Assembly (NCBI GenBank): GCA_049584655.1
Contig: JBAUYF010000007.1
Location: 27,288 to 91,287 of the forward strand
From: Thermoplasmata archaeon
Lineage (GTDB): Archaea; Thermoplasmatota; Thermoplasmata; Lutacidiplasmatales; UBA184
DNA: 64,000 bases
Reading direction: 5' to 3'
Positions 52,480-59,623 of the stretch are shown here, in pieces. Each line of letters opens with the position of its first letter. Position 1 is the first letter of the stretch. The notes under the pieces were generated by a model, which worked only from the letters and a program-made list of their open reading frames with translations, did no database searches and was not told where the DNA came from. The translations under genes were made by a program, and so were the position numbers.

Positions 52480-53967
52480 TCACGGTCCCGCAGCGCGCAG
52501 GCGAACGATCTCTGCTTCGACATCGCCGACCGGTTCGTGGGCCGCTCGGAGGTCTTCGAGATTTATTCCCACATTGGCCAGCGCGCCCTCGCTGGTGGCC
52601 CGAAGTAGTGCGAGGGACGTCACGAGGTCGCTTTCCAATGCCGCCTTTACTCGACTCCGCATATTCCCGAGGGTATCGCTGAGGTGACGTGCGAGCCGAG
52701 CCGTCTCGAGCGGAACTTCCGCTGCCTTGCGAAGGCTTACCACCCAAACCTTCTGGACCACGGAGTCGTGCGGGCGTTCTTTGAGGTCCCGTCGCGCCGA
52801 ACGCACGGATTCGTACGCCGCCGAATCTTCCCCGACGAGCTCCAAGAAACGAGCACGGGCGGCTCGGGCGGAGCTCAAGGCCGGTTCGAGCACTGGGTCT
52901 TCTCCGCCTTTGGGGATCGAGTAGGCTAGCGCCATCTCTCCGAGAGCGGCCCCCATCGCCCCGGCCGCCGCCGCCGCACTCCCTCCGCCCGGAGTAGGAG
53001 TACGGGCGGCGATCCGCTCGACGAACTCTCGGAACGGTTCGGCGGCCATGCCGCTGGTTCCGGACGTTCCAACCGAGCGGACTTTCCGTTCTAAAACTGC
53101 GGATCGGTCGAACCGATTGAGCTGGAGATAGTACTCCGCTGCGTCGAACAGAGCGTCTTCGGGGATGAGGCCCACGACTTCGGACTCCTCGATCGTCACG
53201 CCGAAACGTGCGGCTTCTCGTCGCACGAACTCGAGTGCCCGGGGGACGGACGTCCGACGGTAGTCGGTCAGATTCATCGAGACTTGGGCTCGTTGACGTT
53301 CCTTGATCTCGAAGCCGAGTGCTTTGACCTCCACCAACCCGCCGTCACGGGCGCGAATGGCCTTCGCAATCTTCTTGGCGATCGCCACGTCCGGGGTCGA
53401 CAGATAGGCGTTGTAGGCGATCAGTACAGGTCGCGCGCCGATAGCTACCGCACCGGCAGTCGGGTGGATTCGAGGTTCTCCGAAGTCCGGTGTGCGTGCC
53501 GGATCGGATGCGATCGCGTCCCGGATTCCCTCGAATTGACCTTCGCGCACGCGTGCGAGGTCGGCGCGCTCCGGTCGCTGGGCGGCCAATCCGTAGAGGT
53601 AGACCGGTATCTTGAGCTCTCGAGCGACCCGCTCGCTCAATTGGCGCGCGAGCCCCACCGCATCTTCCATCGAGGACTCCCCTAGTGGCACAAAGGGGAC
53701 GACATCCGTTGCGCCCATCCGGGGATGCTCTCCGTGGTGATGCGTAAGATCGATCAGTTCGGTCGCGACGCGCATCATTCGAATGACTGCCTCGACGAGA
53801 TCGTTGCCCTCGCCGGCGAGCGAAATGACGCATCGGTGATGGTCGGCGTTGCTCTCGATGTCGAGGACTGTGACGTGCGGAACCGCGCGGGCGGCATCTG
53901 CGATCCGAGTGATGATCGCGGCATCGCGTCCCTCGGAAAAGTTGGGGACGCACTCGAACATGGTCAT
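52480..53967 (-). CDS. ftcD: Glutamate formimidoyltransferase / formimidoyltetrahydrofolate cyclodeaminase (FtcD-like, two-domain)
   Basis: N-terminal MFECVPNFSEGRD (formiminotransferase hallmark) plus a C-terminal cyclodeaminase domain (TPTPGGGSAAAAAGAMGAALGEMA). Confidence 0.8.
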   Translation of the reverse strand: MTMFECVPNFSEGRDAAIITRIADAARAVPHVTVLDIESNADHHRCVISLAGEGNDLVEAVIRMMRVATELIDLTHHHGEHPRMGATDVVPFVPLGESSMEDAVGLARQLSERVARELKIPVYLYGLAAQRPERADLARVREGQFEGIRDAIASDPARTPDFGEPRIHPTAGAVAIGARPVLIAYNAYLSTPDVAIAKKIAKAIRARDGGLVEVKALGFEIKERQRAQVSMNLTDYRRTSVPRALEFVRREAARFGVTIEESEVVGLIPEDALFDAAEYYLQLNRFDRSAVLERKVRSVGTSGTSGMAAEPFREFVERIAARTPTPGGGSAAAAAGAMGAALGEMALAYSIPKGGEDPVLEPALSSARAARARFLELVGEDSAAYESVRSARRDLKERPHDSVVQKVWVVSLRKAAEVPLETARLARHLSDTLGNMRSRVKAALESDLVTSLALLRATSEGALANVGINLEDLRAAHEPVGDVEAEIVRLRAAGP

Positions 53968-54998
53968 GGATCCGGCCCGCCGTACGTTTCAAGCAGCGTT
54001 TGACGCGCGCGCGCGTCCGCCGGCGAACTCGTCACCACCGGCCGTTTCCGAGCTCGTGCCACGGCCGCCTTGACACGATCCGGAGAAAATCCGTGTCCCT
54101 CCACGAGAATCCGCTCTACCGCGGCCTCGTCCACCGGTCCAAAATAAGGCGCGGCGGTTGCCTCCACTGCGGGATGGCGGAACAGTTCCGCAACGGGCTC
54201 CACCTCTTTGGGATCGAGGCCGGCCTTCATCAGCGTTGCCTCCCAGCCCAGATGTTCTTGCACCAACTTCAGCGCCCGTTTCGGCCCTATCCCTTTGGCT
54301 CCGTCGTTGAAATCCGTTCCCACGAGAATCCCGATCAGAATTAGCTCATCTCCGCTCACTCCAAGCTGACTCAGCAAGTCGTCCCGGTTCACGAGCTGGG
54401 CGCCCGGGCTCTGACCGGCCCGCCCCCGCGCAGCGAGGCCCCGCACGAGCCGAGGAGCGCCAAAGAGGAGCGAATCATAATCTTCGGAGGCGGCTGCCCA
54501 AACGGATCCGCGCGCTGCCATTGTCGCCGCCTGGGCTTCGCCTTCCGACGGCGCTTGCACGGAAGGTACTCCCAACGCAGTCAGCAACTCCCGAACTTCC
54601 TCGACCATGGATCGCGTGAGCCGGGAAGTCTGCGCGGCCTTCTTGCGCGCAGTTTCGAGATCCCCGGCGGCGAGTGCTTCACTCCACTGCGCCTCGGCGC
54701 GCTCTTTGGCGAGTATCCTCGACCGGATCGTTCCGGCCTTAAGATCCGGCGGGCGACCGTCGAAGACCCATACCGGAAGGACGCCTTGGCTCAGGAGCGA
54801 TGAGGTGCGATAGAAAACCCCAATCAGATGGCTGGTGGGGTGGCCCTCCGGATCCGTGAACGGCATCCCATCGCGCTGGCGAATCGTCGCGAGGAATTGG
54901 TAAATGGCGTTGTAGCCGTCGACAGCCAAGGAGCGCCCGGAGAGGGCGTCCCAAGGAAGCTCCTGCGGGCTGACCAACTCCCGAAACGGAAGGCCCAC
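53964..54998 (-). CDS. fen: Flap endonuclease 1
   Basis: GTG start (cac 54996-54998). (V)GLPFRELVSPQELPWDALSGRSLAVDGYNAIYQFL...HLIGVFYRTSSLL. C-terminal PIP-like region present. The track ORF is over-extended at its N-terminus. Confidence 0.85.
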   Translation of the reverse strand: MGLPFRELVSPQELPWDALSGRSLAVDGYNAIYQFLATIRQRDGMPFTDPEGHPTSHLIGVFYRTSSLLSQGVLPVWVFDGRPPDLKAGTIRSRILAKERAEAQWSEALAAGDLETARKKAAQTSRLTRSMVEEVRELLTALGVPSVQAPSEGEAQAATMAARGSVWAAASEDYDSLLFGAPRLVRGLAARGRAGQSPGAQLVNRDDLLSQLGVSGDELILIGILVGTDFNDGAKGIGPKRALKLVQEHLGWEATLMKAGLDPKEVEPVAELFRHPAVEATAAPYFGPVDEAAVERILVEGHGFSPDRVKAAVARARKRPVVTSSPADARARQTLLETYGGPDP

Positions 54999-55116
54999 GA
55001 TCGAAGCGAAGCGGCGCGGAGTACTTGTGGTTGCCGTCGGAAAGTTTTGGTGGCGGTGCTGGAACGTGCGCGAAGGGTGAAGTACCGGAGGCCGTACTGC
55101 CGGCGCGAGGAAGGCG

Positions 55117-55902
55117 ATGGAGATCAAGTGGCAGGATGAGGCAGGATCCTCCGGGCTCGAACCAGGCGCCGTCATTGTGTCGAGCTTCCCGAGCGCGGGA
55201 CTCGCCGCGACCGTTGCGGCGCATTACATGGTCCAAGCCCTCAAACTCCCCCGCATCGGAATCTTCGACGGGCCGGACATGGCGCCCATCGCCGTCGTAC
55301 AGGACGGCGTGGTGAATCCTCCGATCCGAGTCTACGGGCAGAAGGATTTTGCCGCGATCCTCTCGGAGTTTCCTCCGACTCCCGCCTTGGCGTCCGCGCT
55401 GGCGACGACGATCTTGAACGGCGCAATCCAGCGCAAGGCGCGGATGATTGTGTGTTTTGAGGGGGTGGTCCCGCACCCGTTGGAGGAGGGTCAGGATCCG
55501 GCCGCGGAGGCCCCCGATGAAAAGGTCTGGGTTGCTTTTGCCCGCAAGGACCCGGCTATCACCAAGACGTTCGAGCCCACCCAGGCAGGACTGCTGGAGG
55601 ATGGGGTACTCGGCGGAGTCTCCGGAGCGCTGCTCGTCCAGGGTATCAACCGCTCGATTCCCGTCGCCGTGTTACTCGTCAGCGCACGGGCGGTCGAAGG
55701 GCTTCCCGATCATCGGGCGGGCGCGGCGTTGATCGAAACGTTCGATCGGTTGCTCCCGGAGCTCAAGATCGATACGGGGCCTCTAAGAGTCGAAGCGGAG
55801 CGCATCGAACGAGCGCTACGCGCCGCGATGAAAACGCACGGAAAATCGGAAGCGGCGGGAAAGGCTATCGTCGAGCCGGCAAGCGCGGACATGTACCGGT
55901 AA
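55117..55902 (+). CDS. PAC2-family proteasome assembly chaperone (PbaA/PbaB-like) with a C-terminal HbYX motif
   Basis: VIVSSFPSAGLAATVAAHYMVQAL matches PAC2/DUF75. The C-terminus ...ADMYR fits the HbYX proteasome alpha-ring docking motif. Confidence 0.7.
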   Translation: MEIKWQDEAGSSGLEPGAVIVSSFPSAGLAATVAAHYMVQALKLPRIGIFDGPDMAPIAVVQDGVVNPPIRVYGQKDFAAILSEFPPTPALASALATTILNGAIQRKARMIVCFEGVVPHPLEEGQDPAAEAPDEKVWVAFARKDPAITKTFEPTQAGLLEDGVLGGVSGALLVQGINRSIPVAVLLVSARAVEGLPDHRAGAALIETFDRLLPELKIDTGPLRVEAERIERALRAAMKTHGKSEAAGKAIVEPASADMYR

Positions 55903-55917: not shown

Positions 55918-56093
55918 GACGCCCCCGGCTAATAGGCGTCGGTATAGGTCAACAGGTAGAGGACGCCCCCGACCATCACGGTGAGGAGGATCAGGATCGA
56001 GATCGGATTGGAGGAAAAGACCGCGACCGTCAACCCGATCAACACAGCGGGGAGGAGGATCGCCAGGAGGAATGTCCAGAGCTTTCCGTCCAT
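55918..56093 (-). CDS. Small 2-TM membrane peptide (58 aa) downstream of the FtsZ-like gene
   Basis: MDGKLWTFLLAILLPAVLIGLTVAVFSSNPISILILLTVMVGGVLYLLTYTDAY. ATG at 56093, TAG stop. It is below the track cutoff. Confidence 0.35.
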
Positions 56094-56180
56094 CGCAACC
56101 GCGAGGAGCCCGAGCTCCTCTTAACGATTCTAGCTCGAGGCGAGAGCGCCCCGACCGTCGATGACTCGGTTACCCACTCC

Positions 56181-57104
56181 TCAGTGGAGCGCCTCGGGGG
56201 GACGCGGAGGAGATTCGATCTCGAACGTCAACTCGGCCTCGTGGAACGACGGGCTGGCGGCAGGGGTAGGGGCGTAGGGGCCTAGTCGGGCGGGGCTCTC
56301 GGGCGGAAGCGAAACTTCGATCGTCAGGGGAGCCGACTCGGGGGGCTCGTTCATCGCCCGCCGCGCTCCGAGGGGCCGGGCCGCGGCCGCCGCTACGAGT
56401 GCTTCTGTGGGAATGAGATAGGCTTTCTCGATGTGACTCGCGATCGTTTCCGCCCAGTGTTGGTCCAGCTGGTTGAAAGGAAGCTTGCGCTGCCGCGCCG
56501 CCAGGTACTCGTTGTCGAGGACCTGGAGATTCGCACACCCACGTTGTTGCTTCGCGACGAACTCCTCCACGAAATGCAGGCGCGCCAGCCCACGATCCGC
56601 AACGGACCGGCGGTCCCCTTCCGCGAGGAAGGGCTTGATCACAAAGGCGGAGAGGATTTCGCACTGCCGTGCGGCGGCGCCAAGTACGTAAGGGAACGCT
56701 CCCGTTCCACTGCCGCCCCCCAGACTGCCGACGACGGTGACGAATGTGGCGCCCTCAAAGATTCGGTCCAGCGCCGGCTGCGCGGCGTGCGCCAGCATAC
56801 CGCCGACCACCGTGGAGCCACCGGTATCGGTCTCGACACCCGAATCGGGACCCAAGTAAACGCGTCGATCGAACTCCTCGAAACCCTGGACGCGGGGATC
56901 GCAGTTGATGGCTACGGTCTCGAGATAGCGAAGATGTCGGCGGGCGATGGCCCGGCCGACTTGGATAGCTCCGCCGCCGACAGCGGCCAAAACGAAACGG
57001 ACGTCGTGACCGAGCCGCAAGTCCTCCAACCCTTCGACCGCCGGGTCGGACGGCTCTTCCAGGTTGATCTCTCGGTTGGGTCCATCTCGTGCGGCCTCGT
57101 ACAT
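56181..57104 (-). CDS. Divergent FtsZ/tubulin-superfamily GTPase: GTPase domain only, no canonical C-terminal domain, Pro-rich acidic tail
   Basis: ATG (cat 57102-57104), MYEAARDGP.... AAVGGGAIQVG (G-box), AINCD, VGSLGGGSGTGAFP (tubulin/FtsZ signature GGGTGSG), FVIKPFLAEGDRR (cf. FtsZ VVTKPFxFEGxxR), LQVLDNEYL. The protein ends ...FEIESPPRPPEALH. Confidence 0.7.
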   Translation of the reverse strand: MYEAARDGPNREINLEEPSDPAVEGLEDLRLGHDVRFVLAAVGGGAIQVGRAIARRHLRYLETVAINCDPRVQGFEEFDRRVYLGPDSGVETDTGGSTVVGGMLAHAAQPALDRIFEGATFVTVVGSLGGGSGTGAFPYVLGAAARQCEILSAFVIKPFLAEGDRRSVADRGLARLHFVEEFVAKQQRGCANLQVLDNEYLAARQRKLPFNQLDQHWAETIASHIEKAYLIPTEALVAAAAARPLGARRAMNEPPESAPLTIEVSLPPESPARLGPYAPTPAASPSFHEAELTFEIESPPRPPEALH

Positions 57105-57141
57105 TGCAACTCCCCTGCGTCGTGTCTTCCCTTGCCGCTCC

Positions 57142-57642
57142 CTATCGACCGACGACCCCCTTTCGCTCCAAATCGCGGGCACTCTCTTGGAGGGCACCGA
57201 CTTGAGCCCGCTGTTCGGCGGCTTGCTGGACCGACGTGCGCGCGCGTTGGACGAGTTCGACGACCTTGAGTTCGAGCTCGGCTCGACGCACGAACTCGGC
57301 GAGGACATCGCCGATCGGGCGGTCGTTTCCGACAAGTCGAGCGTAGGCGCCCAGGGTTTCGATCTCATCGCTTCGCAGTCGAACGGGAACTTCGACGATT
57401 CCCGTAGGGTCCAAGCGGGCCGGGGGTGTGGCCGACAGCGCCCGAGCACGCAAGAAGCTGCGCAGCGCCTCTCGCATCAACTCCGAGCGGCTGGCAAACT
57501 CTCCGTTCGAGACGAACGAATCCAGCAGCTGGAGCTCTTTGCGGTTGCACCGTAGGGCGATGCGCTCATCCTCGCGACCCGCCAGGCGGTCTGCCGATTC
57601 TTTCGAACCTTCAGATGCCTTGTTGGGAGCGTTGTCGAACAC
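57142..57642 (-). CDS. Ribbon-helix-helix (CopG/ParR-like) DNA-binding protein with a C-terminal coiled coil
   Basis: ERIALRCNRKELQLLDSFVSNGEFASRSELMREALRSFL fits the RHH pattern (beta strand then two helices). The track start is TTG 57669, which abuts the TATA box. The proposed start is GTG 57642, on a leaderless transcript. Confidence 0.6.
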   Translation of the reverse strand: MFDNAPNKASEGSKESADRLAGREDERIALRCNRKELQLLDSFVSNGEFASRSELMREALRSFLRARALSATPPARLDPTGIVEVPVRLRSDEIETLGAYARLVGNDRPIGDVLAEFVRRAELELKVVELVQRARTSVQQAAEQRAQVGALQESARDLERKGVVGR

Positions 57643-57670
57643 GACTGGGCGCTGGTATGCAGAATGCAAC

Positions 57671-57678
57671 TATTTAAA
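57671..57678 (-). promoter_or_regulatory. Consensus archaeal TATA box (TTTAAATA on the minus strand) for the RHH and FtsZ-like cassette
   Basis: Plus strand reads cTATTTAAAga. It lies about 29 nt upstream of GTG 57642 and is embedded in an AT-rich 200-nt region. Confidence 0.5.
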
Positions 57679-57814
57679 GAGATGCCATGGGCTGCGCCGA
57701 GCATTGCACCGGTACGTCCTAGCAGGAGTTCTATGACGTGTCGAACAAATTTTGATAGGCCGGAACTAGCGTCGATCGTGAAAATCTCACTGTATAACCG
57801 CTCCAAATTTTCGC

Positions 57815-57822
57815 AAAAAAAA
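57815..57822 (-). terminator. T8 tract on the minus strand 66 nt downstream of pilin gene 57888..58739
   Basis: Plus-strand A8 (gcaaaaaaaaca). Oligo-T is the archaeal termination signal. Confidence 0.4.
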
Positions 57823-57887: not shown

Positions 57888-58739
57888 CTAATCGACTCCC
57901 GCGATGCCGTAGATCTGGATCGCGGCGAGAATGGTCGACGGGTATCCTTCGTAGGTCAGGTAGATCTCACACGCCCCCGGCACCACGAAGCACCAACCAG
58001 GAGCGCCGTGGAAGTCGTCCCCGTCGACGCAGGGGTTGCCGGAGTAACCCGGGGCGCAGTCCCCGCTGTAGTCGAGCGGGGTTCCCGGGGTGTGCGTGTA
58101 CAGGATGAACGTATCCCCATTGTTGACCACGCCGGAATAGTTCAGGAGCGGTACGAAAATCCCGAGCCGATTGTACAGTGTGCTATAGGACCCCGAGGGG
58201 ATGAACGTCCCGCACTCCCCGAGGTGGGGCGCGTTAGGGGCGGGTCCCGTGGAACTTCCCGGGAACCAGGTCATGGCCGCCAATGATCCTTGTACCAAGT
58301 AGGTCGTGTAGTTCTGCCCCAGAGCATTGGTCGCTCGGCAGACGAACGAGAACTGGATCTCATCCAGCGAGATATCATCGGGTGTGTGTTGGGTAAAAAC
58401 GATCTGCGTGGAATTCATCTGGGAGTAATTCCCGGTCGCCGTAGTATCACACTGATACGTGATCGCGTTTCCCAACGTCCAGGTGTGCGGGAGCACGTTG
58501 TTGACCCAGGGAAAGTGATACGAATCGAATGTACAGTCGGTCGGATCTCCCCAGACGGGATTCGAAGTGCCCGATCGAACCAGGTAGGAAAGCGTGGGAG
58601 CGGGAGTGGGAAGGTTGAGGTGGAACTCCCACAAGATCGAGCCGACGGCCACCGTCAGGCCGACCAGGAGGACCATCGAAATGATGGTGCTCACGGCCCG
58701 CAACGGCCCAACGCGCCGACGGGACCACTTTCGGACCAT
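57888..58739 (-). CDS. Type IV pilin-like protein (class III signal peptide, Pilin_N-like) with N-glycosylation sequons
   Basis: N-terminus MVRKWSRRRVGPLRAVSTIISMVLLVGLTVAVGSIL is a basic stretch then AVS.VI..IL.V.ITV hydrophobic helix. Sequons NYS, NST, NYT, NYS and several Cys pairs. Confidence 0.65.
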   Translation of the reverse strand: MVRKWSRRRVGPLRAVSTIISMVLLVGLTVAVGSILWEFHLNLPTPAPTLSYLVRSGTSNPVWGDPTDCTFDSYHFPWVNNVLPHTWTLGNAITYQCDTTATGNYSQMNSTQIVFTQHTPDDISLDEIQFSFVCRATNALGQNYTTYLVQGSLAAMTWFPGSSTGPAPNAPHLGECGTFIPSGSYSTLYNRLGIFVPLLNYSGVVNNGDTFILYTHTPGTPLDYSGDCAPGYSGNPCVDGDDFHGAPGWCFVVPGACEIYLTYEGYPSTILAAIQIYGIAGVD

Positions 58740-59029: not shown

Positions 59030-59623
59030 ATGCACGTATTTGGACGGAAAGCGAGAAGTTGGAGAAAGGGGCGCAAGCGGGGAGTATCCCCGATCATCGC
59101 TACGATTTTGCTCGTGGCGATTACCGTGGTACTGGCTGCCGTGCTCTATATCCTCATCTCGGGATTGACGAAGGGACCCGGCAACACGCCGCTTAGCACG
59201 GCGTTTGGATTCGGAACAGCGACCCAAGTGAACCCGACAGCCACTACGGCTGGCGAGTGCACAGCAGCTCACTTCTGCTATGAGATCGCGATTAGCGAAG
59301 CGAGCGGCGGGCTCACGGCGAACGATATCCAGCTGAAGCTGACCACGAATACGGGCACGATCATTGCGGTGAACGACTTCTATGTCGATGCCGCGAACTT
59401 GGCCGTGAACGGTTATCTCGCGTCCGCCGTCAACCCCTCCGGGGCATGGGCGTCGACCGCGGGAACGGGTGGAGCAGCCGTCGAAATTACGGGCACGACC
59501 GTCATGACCGGCGCGATGGTCATGTGGATCGATATTACCGCGTCCGTATACGGCACCGGCGCCATCTTGACCGCGTTCGGACAGGGGTCGTTCTCGTCTT
59601 CGGTCTCGACCACCCTCCCGTAA
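59030..59623 (+). CDS. Archaeal type IV pilin (class III signal peptide)
   Basis: MHVFGRKARSWRKGRKRG|VSPIIATILLVAITVVLAAVLYILISGL is a textbook prepilin signal (cleavage after G). The rest is Thr/Ala/Gly-rich. Confidence 0.8.
   Translation: MHVFGRKARSWRKGRKRGVSPIIATILLVAITVVLAAVLYILISGLTKGPGNTPLSTAFGFGTATQVNPTATTAGECTAAHFCYEIAISEASGGLTANDIQLKLTTNTGTIIAVNDFYVDAANLAVNGYLASAVNPSGAWASTAGTGGAAVEITGTTVMTGAMVMWIDITASVYGTGAILTAFGQGSFSSSVSTTLP

What the first reader, a model, noticed from the sequence alone, without database searches (positions are those of the whole stretch)
55918..57690. RHH DNA-binding protein, truncated FtsZ/tubulin-like GTPase and 2-TM peptide cassette under a consensus archaeal promoter
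The GTPase (56181..57104) keeps the FtsZ/tubulin nucleotide-binding core (GGGxGxG-like G-box, GGGSGTGAFP, KPFxxEGxRR T-loop context). It replaces the C-terminal polymerisation domain with a Pro-rich acidic tail. It is preceded by a ribbon-helix-helix protein carrying a coiled-coil tail and followed by a tiny 2-TM protein. The gene order (DNA-binding adaptor, then tubulin-like NTPase) and the AT-rich upstream region recall type III TubR-TubZ-tubC partition modules. They also recall the GTPase-only FtsZ-like families implicated in membrane remodelling. The canonical FtsZ/CetZ proteins of this genome are probably elsewhere. I do not know of a characterised archaeal RHH plus minimal-tubulin plus membrane-peptide module like this one.
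Basis: partly seen in the sequence, partly recalled or inferred. Interest (0 to 1): 0.8.

Follow-up and report, generated by a model that had tools for sequence, protein, structure and literature searches.

The report
Half-FtsZ gene with CdrS-like regulator
A soil archaeon, and at least 124 related species, carries a conserved gene pair: a DNA-binding regulator and a cell-division protein (FtsZ) relative that kept only its GTP-binding half, next to a tiny membrane protein. It looks like an undescribed offshoot of the known archaeal cdrS-ftsZ2 division module, not a DNA-partition system.

Summary
On the minus strand lie an RHH gene (57142-57642; true start GTG 57642), a 307-aa FtsZ-like gene (56181-57104) and a 54-aa two-helix membrane gene (55929-56093). 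All are under strong purifying selection.

The FtsZ-like protein keeps the GTP-binding motifs and folds as strands S1-S6 plus helix H7. It has no T7 loop and no C-terminal domain. It ends in a Pro-rich linker and a conserved ELTFE[IV]..RPP peptide.

The family is narrow: 124 GTDB species, all Thermoplasmata MAGs, including UBA184 and Lutacidiplasma. It is chromosomal and absent from plasmid, phage and viral collections.

RHH-Tub-TM2 adjacency survives in two different genomic neighbourhoods. TM2 appears to have its own promoter.

A 9-bp near-palindrome, TGTTCGACA, sits at fixed positions: on the RHH start codon, at -105, and often at -126. It flanks a conserved TATA box and is almost absent elsewhere, so it is a probable autoregulatory operator.

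The RHH domain best matches CdrS in 40/40 members. The GTPase matches FtsZ (E 5e-17), not TubZ or CetZ (E above 0.2).

Two UBA184-order MAGs also carry two-domain FtsZ genes.

Best reading: a diverged paralogue of cdrS-ftsZ2 whose half-FtsZ modulates division. Function is inferred only.

The parts
57142..57642 (-). RHH DNA-binding protein, 166 aa, GTG start. Layout: disordered N-terminus, CdrS-like RHH domain (about residues 26-70), linker, long helix 110-160, conserved C-terminal DLERKGVVGR.
   Evidence: Start fixed by homologue alignment. CdrS model is the best hit in 40/40 members and RHH_1 hits 28/40. AF2 secondary structure. dN/dS 0.14-0.16.
56181..57104 (-). Half-FtsZ: a 307-aa FtsZ-derived GTP-binding domain (S1-S6 plus H7). 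No T7 loop and no C-terminal domain. Residues 243-307 form a Pro-rich linker plus the conserved peptide EAELTFEIESPPRPP.
   Evidence: Pfam, NCBIfam and PDB hits. AF2 model and Foldseek. Motif conservation in 128 members. dN/dS 0.02-0.045.
55929..56093 (-). 54-aa two-transmembrane-helix hairpin protein (TM2). Conserved residues: G3, P15, F26, N29-P30, G43, Y46-L47, Y50.
   Evidence: Alignments A3 and A7. Present next to the half-FtsZ in both neighbourhood types. dN/dS 0.05-0.06.
57633..57641 (-). Operator copy O1, TGTTCGACA, overlapping the GTG start codon (GTG TTC GAC AAC). It lies about 29 nt downstream of the TATA box, near the expected transcription start.
   Evidence: Exact in 74/75 loci at +1. 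Direct repeat D2 in the window.
57671..57678 (-). TATA box TTTAAATA (TTTAAGTA in most relatives) at -36 from the RHH start. This implies a nearly leaderless RHH mRNA.
   Evidence: Fixed position in about 75 loci.
57734..57747 (-). Operator copy O2, TGTTCGACA (extended form TGTTCGACACGTCA), 106 bp upstream of O1, about 10 helical turns.
   Evidence: Exact in 68/75 loci at -103 to -106. The only other exact copy in the 64-kb window.
57792..57798 (-). Invariant GTTATAC box at -155. It may be a distal TATA-like element. In many relatives a third operator copy (O3, at -126) lies 23 nt downstream of it; the window itself has no copy there within one mismatch.
   Evidence: Present at -154 to -157 in every locus examined. 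Function not tested.
57110..57115 (-). Shine-Dalgarno-like GGGGAG, 5 nt upstream of the half-FtsZ ATG, in the 37-nt RHH-Tub spacer.
   Evidence: A G-rich run is conserved before the Tub start in relatives. In the divergent clade the two genes overlap by 23 nt or are 1 nt apart.
56117..56124 (-). TATA-like box TTAAGAGG at -31..-24 from the TM2 ATG. Probable separate promoter for a leaderless TM2 mRNA.
   Evidence: AT-rich box conserved at this distance, including in loci where another gene is inserted between Tub and TM2.

Best explanation
This is a chromosomal, vertically inherited module of the Lutacidiplasmatales/UBA184-type Thermoplasmata. It is best read as a diverged paralogue of the archaeal cdrS-ftsZ2 cell-division unit.

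**Gene 1 (RHH).** It encodes a CdrS-like ribbon-helix-helix protein with a long C-terminal helix. I infer that its dimers bind the 9-bp near-palindrome TGTTCGACA. One copy sits at the transcription start and start codon. Another sits 10 helical turns upstream, and often a third lies 2 turns further. Bound there, possibly bridged through the helix, the protein would autoregulate the bicistronic RHH/half-FtsZ operon.

**Gene 2 (half-FtsZ).** It encodes only the N-terminal GTP-binding domain of FtsZ. It should bind GTP. It lacks the T7 loop and the C-terminal domain, so it cannot supply the bottom face needed for head-to-tail polymerisation or for activating GTP hydrolysis in a neighbour. Like FtsZ, it keeps a disordered linker ending in a conserved peptide, here ELTFE[IV]..RPP, which points to a docking partner.

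**Inferred function.** It acts as an accessory or regulator of the FtsZ division machinery. At least two MAGs of the clade also carry two-domain FtsZ genes. The most specific version is that its GTP-bound face docks on the growing, CTD-exposed end of an FtsZ filament and blocks further growth. Its tail and the adjacent 54-aa hairpin membrane protein would place it at the membrane.

**Status of each step.** Gene content, fold, motifs, linkage and cis-elements are shown. DNA binding, GTP binding, partner identity and any role in division are inferred.
For: - **Fold and motifs.** AF2 core S1-S6 plus H7 with a disordered tail. Foldseek top 50 hits are all FtsZ. T1, T4, T5 and T6 motifs are intact in about 122-124 of 128 members, and ELTFE[VI] in 118/128.
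- **FtsZ origin.** The family profile scores FtsZ at 5e-17 against TubZ, RepX and CetZ at 0.2 or worse.
- **RHH affinity.** The CdrS model is the best hit in 40/40 members. Archaeal ftsZ2 is commonly preceded by an RHH gene, called cdrS or 'parD'.
- **Linkage.**
  - RHH is immediately upstream of Tub in every locus with enough upstream sequence.
  - The trio is kept in a second, unrelated neighbourhood (NDK-Sua5-M24).
  - RHH and Tub overlap or abut there.
- **Operator.**
  - 158 exact copies at three fixed promoter positions in 77 loci, against 1 elsewhere in 1.04 Mb (about 8 expected).
  - Only two copies in the 64-kb window.
  - A related palindrome, TGTCCGACA, lies just downstream of the TATA box in the divergent clade.
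- **Selection.** dN/dS 0.02-0.16.
- **Co-occurrence with two-domain FtsZ** in MAGs UBA61 and UBA184.
- **Capping logic.** FtsZ grows at the CTD-exposed end, where the GTP-bound NTD of the incoming subunit docks (PMC11157280).
Against: - There is no experimental or expression data, and the lineage is uncultured.
- The CdrS match is far below the model's cut-off (23-35 bits against 100). The RHH protein is 166 aa against 61 aa for CdrS.
- FtsZ1 versus FtsZ2 origin was not resolved.
- I could not test whether the top-face residues match this lineage's FtsZ.
- Part of the canonical top interface comes from the missing C-domain (H10; my own knowledge).
- The tail motif is not the archaeal GID motif that binds SepF, so the partner is unknown.
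- Several sublineages have eroded T4 motifs (GGRSGTG, GGEAGTE, GGETGSS, GGSSGTG), so GTP binding may not be essential everywhere.
- TM2 has very short soluble ends and is separately transcribed, so a direct Tub-TM2 contact is speculative.
- Co-occurrence with canonical FtsZ rests on a published supplementary table for two MAGs, not on the window's own genome.
Confidence: 0.45

Rival explanations
1. Membrane or envelope function independent of the FtsZ ring. The half-FtsZ would be a GTP-dependent switch that works with the 2-TM peptide, and perhaps the neighbouring type IV pilin-like genes, in membrane remodelling, vesicle formation or surface-structure assembly. Makarova and Koonin proposed a role of this kind for FtsZl families.
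For: - The 2-TM gene stays adjacent in both neighbourhood types.
- Pilin_N genes lie upstream in the main clade.
- There is precedent for non-polymerising FtsZ-like proteins implicated in membrane remodelling.
- The tail motif differs from the SepF-binding GID motif.
Against: - The pilin genes are absent from the second neighbourhood.
- TM2 is separately transcribed and is displaced by insertions in some lineages.
- No vWA, OmpA or dynamin-like partners are present.
- The CdrS-like regulator points to the division module.
Confidence: 0.2
2. Toxin-antitoxin-like or ligand-sensing regulatory pair. The RHH protein (N-terminal DNA binding, C-terminal partner binding, like ParD-type antitoxins) would bind and neutralise the half-FtsZ. 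Alternatively, the half-FtsZ would act as a GTP-sensing co-repressor. Either way the main output would be transcriptional control or conditional growth arrest.
For: - The RHH resembles ParD antitoxins weakly.
- The antitoxin-first gene order and an operator at the promoter fit this layout.
- Both proteins have conserved terminal peptides: DLERKGVVGR and ELTFE.
- The operator is confined to this promoter within the sequence examined.
Against: - The module is single-copy and syntenic, with strong purifying selection across at least 124 species. Mobile, patchy TA modules do not behave like this.
- There are no plasmid, phage or defence-system matches.
- No known toxin fold is present.
- This reading also overlaps with the main explanation, since a capper held in check by its regulator would fit both.
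Confidence: 0.15
3. Type III (TubZRC-like) DNA segregation. The RHH would be a centromere-binding adaptor on the TGTTCGACA repeats, and the tubulin-like GTPase the motor.
For: - The gene order is DNA-binding protein then tubulin-family GTPase.
- Direct repeats lie upstream.
- The GTPase has a flexible tail with a conserved end, as TubZ does (my own knowledge).
Against: - The GTPase lacks the domain needed for filament formation.
- The profile is FtsZ-like, not TubZ-like.
- Only 2-3 repeats are present, placed around a TATA box and transcription start, which is typical of an operator.
- The setting is a chromosomal housekeeping region (PAC2, FEN1, FTCD, primase).
- The family is absent from plasmids, phages and IMG/VR.
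Confidence: 0.05

Closest known systems
cdrS-ftsZ2 operon of Halobacteria and other Euryarchaeota (Darnell 2020, PMC7439475; Liao 2021, PMC8406309)
   Same: - An RHH gene lies directly upstream of, and co-oriented with, an FtsZ-family gene on an archaeal chromosome.
- The RHH domain's best profile match is CdrS in 40/40 members.
- The pair is probably co-transcribed.
   Different: - The RHH is 166 aa with a long helical extension, against 61 aa for CdrS.
- Its scores are far below the CdrS cut-off.
- The FtsZ-family gene lacks the T7 loop and the C-terminal domain.
- Its C-terminal peptide is ELTFE, not GID.
- A 2-TM micro-protein gene is adjacent.
- The binding sites appear confined to its own promoter within the sequence examined, which is more like CdrL than like the multi-site CdrS.
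CdrL (haloarchaeal RHH plus zinc-ribbon regulator that binds only upstream of cdrS-ftsZ2; PMC7439475)
   Same: It is a larger RHH protein with a C-terminal extension. It acts, or here is predicted to act, on a single promoter that drives an RHH-FtsZ operon.
   Different: - CdrL is restricted to Halobacteria and has a double-zinc-ribbon C-terminus.
- It lies upstream of cdrS as a separate gene.
- Here no zinc ribbon is present and the RHH domain itself is CdrS-like.
FtsZl1 / Tubulin_2 family (Makarova & Koonin 2010, PMC2875224)
   Same: Both are FtsZ-superfamily proteins in which only the N-terminal nucleotide-binding part is recognisable. Both have no T7 loop or FtsZ C-domain, and polymerisation is doubtful.
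   Different: - FtsZl1 proteins are about 1000 aa with a coiled coil and an alpha-helical C-domain, and later work assigns them to Pfam PF13809.
- Their operons include vWA, OmpA and GTPase genes.
- The present family is 300-320 aa, matches PF00091 and has none of these neighbours.
TubZ-TubR-tubC type III plasmid/phage partition
   Same: A DNA-binding protein gene precedes a tubulin-family GTPase gene, with repeats upstream and a flexible GTPase tail.
   Different: - TubZ is a two-domain polymerising GTPase.
- TubR is a winged-helix protein (my own knowledge).
- tubC is an array of many iterons.
- The system is plasmid- or phage-borne. None of these features is met here.
FtsZ filament end-cappers (bottom-face FtsZ mutants, MciZ, MipZ; e.g. 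PMC9897490, PMC11157280)
   Same: A protein with an intact GTP-bound NTD face but no CTD face would be expected to add to the growing end and stop elongation. This is a functional analogy only.
   Different: The known cappers are engineered mutants or unrelated small proteins and ATPases. No natural FtsZ paralogue with this role is known to me, and capping was not tested here.

Membership tests
Canonical FtsZ (FtsZ1/FtsZ2) | N-terminal GTP-binding domain with T1 GGGG, T4 GGGTG[ST]G, T5 and T6 motifs | tested here: met
   PF00091 at E 3.9e-10. Motifs are intact in about 122-124 of 128 members. Foldseek top hits are all FtsZ.
Canonical FtsZ (FtsZ1/FtsZ2) | T7 synergy loop (NxDFxD) after H7 and the C-terminal (FtsZ_C) domain | tested here: not met
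   The AF2 model ends with H7 at residue 242, followed by disorder. All 120 listed homologues carry PF00091 only. There is no NxDxxD motif in the family consensus.
Canonical FtsZ (FtsZ1/FtsZ2) | Score above the TIGR00065 equivalog cut-off | tested here: not met
   59.9 bits against a cut-off of 295.2; only residues 42-177 align.
Canonical FtsZ (FtsZ1/FtsZ2) | Archaeal C-terminal peptide centred on the GID motif (SepF binding; PMC8178401) | tested here: not met
   The conserved tail motif is E[AV]ELTFE[IV]xxxxRPP in 118/128 members.
cdrS-ftsZ2 module | RHH gene immediately upstream of, and co-oriented with, an FtsZ-family gene | tested here: met
   The spacer is 37 nt in the window. The arrangement is found in every locus with upstream sequence, and the genes overlap or abut in the divergent clade.
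cdrS-ftsZ2 module | RHH protein is a CdrS orthologue (NF058555 equivalog; about 61 aa) | tested here: not met
   It is the best-hit family in 40/40 members, but the window protein scores 23 bits (best member E 5.5e-9) against a cut-off of 100. The protein is 166 aa.
cdrS-ftsZ2 module | Downstream gene is a full-length FtsZ2 required for constriction | tested here: not met
   The gene encodes only the N-terminal domain. FtsZ1 versus FtsZ2 affinity is unresolved. Function is not testable here.
cdrS-ftsZ2 module | Co-transcription of the two genes | tested here: inconclusive
   The spacer is short with an SD-like GGGGAG, and no TATA-like box was noticed in it by eye. The genes overlap by 23 nt in L086. 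No transcript data are available.
TubZRC type III partition | TubZ-family two-domain polymerising GTPase | tested here: not met
   Family profile against TubZ/RepX gives E 0.2-0.35, against 5e-17 for FtsZ. There is no C-terminal domain.
TubZRC type III partition | Winged-helix TubR adaptor and a multi-iteron tubC centromere | tested here: not met
   The upstream protein is an RHH. Only 2-3 copies of a 9-bp site are present, positioned around the TATA box and transcription start. The TubR fold is from my own knowledge.
TubZRC type III partition | Carried on plasmids or phages | tested here: not met
   No tblastn match in 72,556 plasmids or 50,697 phages, and no relative in IMG/VR. The neighbourhood is housekeeping genes.
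FtsZl1 (Tubulin_2) | About 1000-aa protein with coiled coil and alpha-helical C-domain, Pfam PF13809, neighbours vWA/OmpA/GTPase | tested here: not met
   The protein is 307 aa. No PF13809 hit at E up to 1. The neighbours are RHH, the 2-TM gene, PAC2 and FEN1. Family definition.
CetZ | Sequence and profile similarity to CetZ, including the CetZ C-terminal domain | tested here: not met
   CetZ structure 4B45 scores E 0.34. No C-terminal domain is present.
Type II toxin-antitoxin (ParD-like) | RHH antitoxin plus a recognised toxin family, with a mobile or patchy distribution | tested here: not met
   ParD similarity is weak (15/40 members at E 8e-4 or worse). The downstream gene is FtsZ-derived. 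The module is vertical and syntenic in 124 species. No PADLOC hit.

The most novel reading that the evidence does not exclude
The half-FtsZ is a natural, dedicated terminator of FtsZ filaments. It would be a tubulin-superfamily paralogue that lost its polymerising face and now caps the growing end of the cell's own FtsZ1/FtsZ2 polymers. Its dose would be set by a CdrS-derived autorepressor, which may also bind it directly, and it would be positioned through its ELTFE tail and the 54-aa membrane hairpin. To my knowledge this would be the first cellular example of a cytoskeletal polymer regulated by a truncated paralogue of its own subunit in prokaryotes.
Probability: 0.2. Interest if true: 0.8.

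Novelty: new variant of a known kind. Interest (0 to 1): 0.55.

Why it matters
Archaeal FtsZ-based division is poorly understood, and Thermoplasmata show unusual, reduced division toolkits (PMC11188069).

- **A natural experiment on FtsZ domains.** An order-wide, strongly conserved FtsZ N-domain-only protein, with its own C-terminal docking peptide and a dedicated CdrS-like regulator, shows what the GTP-binding half does alone.
- **A candidate new ring regulator.** It offers a possible new class of endogenous FtsZ-ring regulator.
- **A directly testable regulatory element.** The sharply defined operator TGTTCGACA, at fixed spacing around the promoter, can be tested as an archaeal cis-regulatory element.
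- **Evolution of the division module.** It would extend the cdrS-ftsZ2 theme: the RHH-FtsZ gene pair can duplicate and specialise.

Tried and rejected
1. **FtsZl1 membership.** Rejected on architecture and Pfam family.
2. **TubZRC partition.** Rejected on profile scores, fold, mobile-element searches and repeat number.
3. **A second RHH repeat in the regulator.** I suspected one at residues 83-128. hhalign gives 0.7% probability and AF2 does not pair the strands, so I dropped it.
4. **RHH fold search.** No significant PDB match; ParD RHH domains appear only at E above 6. The monomer model has pTM 0.40, so it was not used beyond secondary structure.
5. **A covarying palindrome between the TATA box and the start codon.** On inspection it is a semi-conserved sequence (GGAxTTTxCAT), not a covarying stem. 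Dropped.
6. **Using the nearest generic FtsZ hits to find this lineage's own FtsZ.** The hits are a mix of bacterial and DPANN FtsZ and are uninformative.
7. **Literature on Lutacidiplasmatales and Thermoplasmatota.** Neither paper mentions FtsZ or cell division.
8. **Other negative searches.** No Rfam match. No PADLOC hit, and the only PHROG hits were two weak ones for the RHH protein, the better being a transcriptional repressor family at E 4.9e-5. No paralogue of any of the three genes in the 64-kb window.
9. **AFDB fold search.** The library was unavailable.
10. **Not attempted.**
    - FtsZ1 versus FtsZ2 phylogeny, because I had no labelled reference set.
    - The third protein-database search was not spent. 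Reaching this lineage's canonical FtsZ within the 120 listed hits was unlikely, and co-occurrence was already documented from a published supplement.


Full report
**1. What is there**

Three co-oriented ORFs lie on the minus strand:
- an RHH gene at 57142-57669, measured from the first TTG;
- a tubulin/FtsZ-like gene at 56181-57104 (307 aa from ATG);
- a 54-aa ORF at 55929-56093.

Alignment with homologues moves the RHH start to GTG 57642 (MFDNAP..., 166 aa).

Pfam finds only the Tubulin/FtsZ GTPase domain in the middle gene (PF00091, E 3.9e-10, residues 59-175). It finds a borderline RHH_1 match in the upstream gene. NCBIfam gives ftsZ at 59.9 bits against a cut-off of 295. For the RHH, the haloarchaeal CdrS model is the best hit.

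Against the two closest relatives, dN/dS is 0.02-0.05 for the GTPase, 0.05-0.06 for the 54-aa gene and 0.14-0.16 for the RHH. All three are therefore real genes under purifying selection.

**2. The GTPase is an FtsZ N-terminal domain and nothing else**

An AlphaFold2 model built on 55 family members (mean pLDDT 81.8) is confident for residues about 30-242. It shows six strands and the helices up to a long H7 (210-242). It is disordered from 243 to 307.

Foldseek against the PDB returns only FtsZ in the top 50, aligning about 200 columns. The family profile hits FtsZ chains at E 5e-17 to 1e-10. PhuZ scores 4e-4, TubZ/RepX 0.2-0.35 and CetZ (4B45) 0.34.

In 128 full-length members the nucleotide-binding motifs are nearly invariant:

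| Motif | Members |
|---|---|
| T1 GGG | 124 |
| T4 GGGxGxG | about 122 |
| PFxxEGxRR | 122 |
| T6 DNE | 124 |

There is no T7 NxDxxD loop and no FtsZ_C domain. All 120 listed homologues carry PF00091 only and are about 284-324 aa.

The tail is 23% proline and variable. It ends in a conserved peptide, E[AV]ELTFE[IV]xxxxRPP, found in 118/128 members. This repeats the FtsZ layout of core, disordered linker and docking peptide. The peptide, however, is not the archaeal GID motif that binds SepF.

A few sublineages have degraded T4 motifs (GGRSGTG, GGEAGTE, GGETGSS, GGSSGTG) while keeping the tail motif.

**3. Distribution**

The family is narrow. A full HMMER scan of 1.84 billion cluster representatives gives 15 representatives below 1e-30. 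Scores then drop sharply to generic FtsZ at about 1e-12, covering only residues 36-180.

A scan of one genome per GTDB species finds 124 species. Nearly all are labelled Thermoplasmata MAGs from soil and peat, including UBA184, UBA61 and Candidatus Lutacidiplasma silvani. UBA184 belongs to the order Lutacidiplasmatales, formerly TMEG.

There is no match in 72,556 plasmids, 50,697 phages or IMG/VR. There is also no PADLOC hit, and no PHROG hit for the half-FtsZ or TM2.

**4. Gene linkage**

In the 85 related loci fetched first, tblastn finds the RHH gene immediately upstream of the GTPase wherever sequence is available. The 2-TM gene lies downstream in all but one. PAC2 and FEN1 follow, so much of this is simple synteny.

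The decisive evidence comes from divergent members at about 40% identity. P0131 (L086) and P0127 (L091) sit in a different neighbourhood, with NDK, Sua5 and peptidase M24 upstream and differing genes downstream. They still have a homologous RHH gene upstream, overlapping by 23 nt or 1 nt away. They also have a homologous 56-aa 2-TM gene downstream.

RHH plus half-FtsZ is thus a tight bicistronic unit, with a G-rich Shine-Dalgarno sequence before the second gene.

The 2-TM gene is different.
- A GC-rich stretch follows the GTPase stop codon.
- An AT-rich TATA-like box (TTAAGAGG or TTTATGAG) sits at -31..-24 from the TM2 ATG.
- In L064 and L084 a reverse-strand gene is inserted between the two genes. 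In L051 TM2 is not within 700 nt.

So TM2 is a conserved neighbour that very probably has its own promoter.

**5. A sharply defined operator**

Aligning the upstream regions revealed a 9-bp near-palindrome, TGTTCGACA, at fixed positions:
- O1 at +1, overlapping the start codon (GTG TTC GAC AAC = MFDN);
- O2 at -103 to -106;
- O3 at -125 or -126, in part of the loci.

A conserved TATA box, TTTAA(G/A)TA, lies at -36.

In 77 unique loci (1.04 Mb) there are 158 exact copies at these positions on the coding strand and one copy elsewhere, against about 8 expected by chance. O1 is exact in 74/75 loci, O2 in 68/75 and O3 in 15/75.

In the 64-kb window the exact motif occurs only at 57633-57641 and 57739-57747. 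The spacings of about 105 and 21 bp correspond to 10 and 2 helical turns.

The divergent clade has the perfect palindrome TGTCCGACA. There it occurs twice, 24 nt apart, just downstream of the TATA box and before the ATG. In L089 two copies lie inside the N-terminal coding region (MFDKSSLGLFDK). This shows that the constraint acts on the DNA.

A site that overlaps the expected transcription start is the classic position of an archaeal repressor. The obvious binder is the RHH encoded by the first gene. This is inference; nothing was tested.

An invariant GTTATAC box at -155 is unexplained.

**6. The RHH protein**

All 40 sampled members hit the CdrS model best (best E 5.5e-9). ParD is hit by 15/40 and Pfam RHH_1 by 28/40. 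Scores stay far below the CdrS equivalog cut-off.

The protein has about 100 extra residues, including a long predicted helix at 110-160 and a conserved C-terminal DLERKGVVGR. A suspected second RHH repeat was not supported. The monomer model found no significant structural neighbour.

**7. Comparison with known systems**

CdrS is a 61-aa RHH encoded 3 nt upstream of ftsZ2 and co-transcribed with it. It is required for normal division in haloarchaea, and the locus is widely conserved in Euryarchaeota. Pende et al. likewise note that ftsZ2 frequently sits next to 'parD'. CdrL is a larger RHH protein that binds only upstream of cdrS-ftsZ2.

The present module shares the gene order and the RHH type. 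It differs in the truncated FtsZ, the longer RHH, the tail motif and the 2-TM neighbour.

FtsZl1 proteins are about 1000 aa with coiled coils, fall in Pfam Tubulin_2 and have vWA/OmpA neighbours, so this family is not a member. TubZRC fails on every defining feature tested.

**8. Canonical FtsZ co-occurs**

The supplementary data of Santana-Molina et al. (PMC9871819) include an hmmsearch of a CetZ C-terminal HMM against their full FtsZ/tubulin set. It lists these hits:
- for MAG UBA61 (GCA_002503985.1): DASW01000002.1:398444-399325 and DASW01000009.1:116109-116990, each 294 aa;
- for MAG UBA184 (GCA_002495185.1): DAEB01000013.1:24774-25649 and DAEB01000007.1:4291-4692.

Their scores are typical of archaeal FtsZ C-domains.

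The half-FtsZ genes of these same MAGs lie on other contigs, DASW01000003.1 and DAEB01000016.1. The truncated protein is therefore an extra paralogue, not the lineage's only FtsZ. I could not check the window's own genome. The 64-kb window contains no other FtsZ-like gene.

**9. Mechanism**

Shown:
- a GTP-binding FtsZ N-domain with intact motifs;
- no T7 loop or C-domain;
- a conserved C-terminal peptide;
- tight coupling to a CdrS-like RHH;
- a promoter-specific operator;
- a conserved adjacent micro-membrane protein.

From established knowledge, the T7 loop of the C-domain completes the neighbour's GTPase site and forms the bottom polymer face. FtsZ filaments grow at the CTD-exposed end, where the GTP-bound NTD of the incoming subunit docks (PMC11157280).

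Inferred: the half-FtsZ cannot form canonical filaments alone. It could add once to a growing FtsZ end and block it, or otherwise act as a GTP-dependent adaptor at the ring or membrane. The RHH would autoregulate its dose.

The rival readings are listed with their weights: a ring-independent membrane function, a TA-like or GTP-sensing regulatory pair, and a partition system.

**10. Verdict**

It is wrong in its lead analogy.

I found no description of this family in the searched literature. Databases annotate it as 'hypothetical protein' or 'Tubulin/FtsZ family, GTPase domain'. I classify it as a new variant of a known kind, an offshoot of cdrS-ftsZ2.

Interest is moderate to good. The main limits are the lack of any functional data and the uncultured host.

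Noticed in passing
window 57792-57798 (minus strand); all related loci at -154 to -157 from the RHH start: An invariant GTTATAC heptamer lies upstream of the operator sites in every locus examined. It could be a distal TATA-like box: the O3 operator copy lies 23 nt downstream of it, mirroring the TATA1-O1 arrangement. Read on the other strand (GTATAAC), it could be a promoter for an antisense transcript. No Rfam match.
   Followed up: partly
L064:8866-9414 and L084:5376-5939 (reverse strand, between the half-FtsZ and the 2-TM gene): In Ca. Lutacidiplasma silvani and a relative, an unrelated 182-187-aa gene is inserted on the opposite strand between the half-FtsZ and the 2-TM gene. The TATA-like box stays with the 2-TM gene.
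   Followed up: partly
L089:7446-7490 (also L090): In one divergent sublineage the operator is duplicated inside the RHH coding region (GTGTTCGACAAG, then CTGTTCGACAAG 24 nt later). This produces the peptide repeat MFDK...LFDK, a case of a DNA-binding site shaping a protein N-terminus.
   Followed up: partly
window 57145-57642 compared with L006:7463-7960: Synonymous divergence of the RHH gene against the closest relative is about three times lower than that of the adjacent half-FtsZ gene (dS 0.275 against 0.93). This suggests extra constraint on the RHH DNA or RNA, or a recent recombination event.
   Followed up: no
family members P0124, P0130, P0134; L064, L084: Several sublineages have lost glycines of the T4 signature (GGRSGTG, GGEAGTE, GGETGSS, GGSSGTG, GGASGTG) but keep the C-terminal EL(T/L)FE peptide. 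This hints that partner binding matters more than GTP binding in those lineages.
   Followed up: partly
window 57888-58739 and 59030-59623; T-run 57815-57822: Two type IV pilin-like genes (class III signal-peptide N-termini; weak Pilin_N hit) lie upstream. The nearer one, on the same strand as the RHH gene, ends in an 8-T run that probably terminates its transcript before the RHH promoter region. Pilin genes recur upstream in main-clade loci but not in the divergent clade.
   Followed up: no
window 53964-55175 (minus) and 55117-55902 (plus): The FEN1 (XPG_N/XPG_I) ORF, as listed, is 403 aa and overlaps the divergent PAC2 proteasome-chaperone gene by 59 nt. Homologues are 335-368 aa, so the true FEN1 start is probably further downstream and the two genes share a short divergent promoter region.
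   Followed up: no
proteins P0144 (333 aa) and P0145 (236 aa) from the representative search: The best non-family hits are other short FtsZ-like proteins from metagenomes. They lack a recognisable T7 motif or an FtsZ C-terminal peptide, so they may be further truncated or divergent FtsZ families.
   Followed up: no
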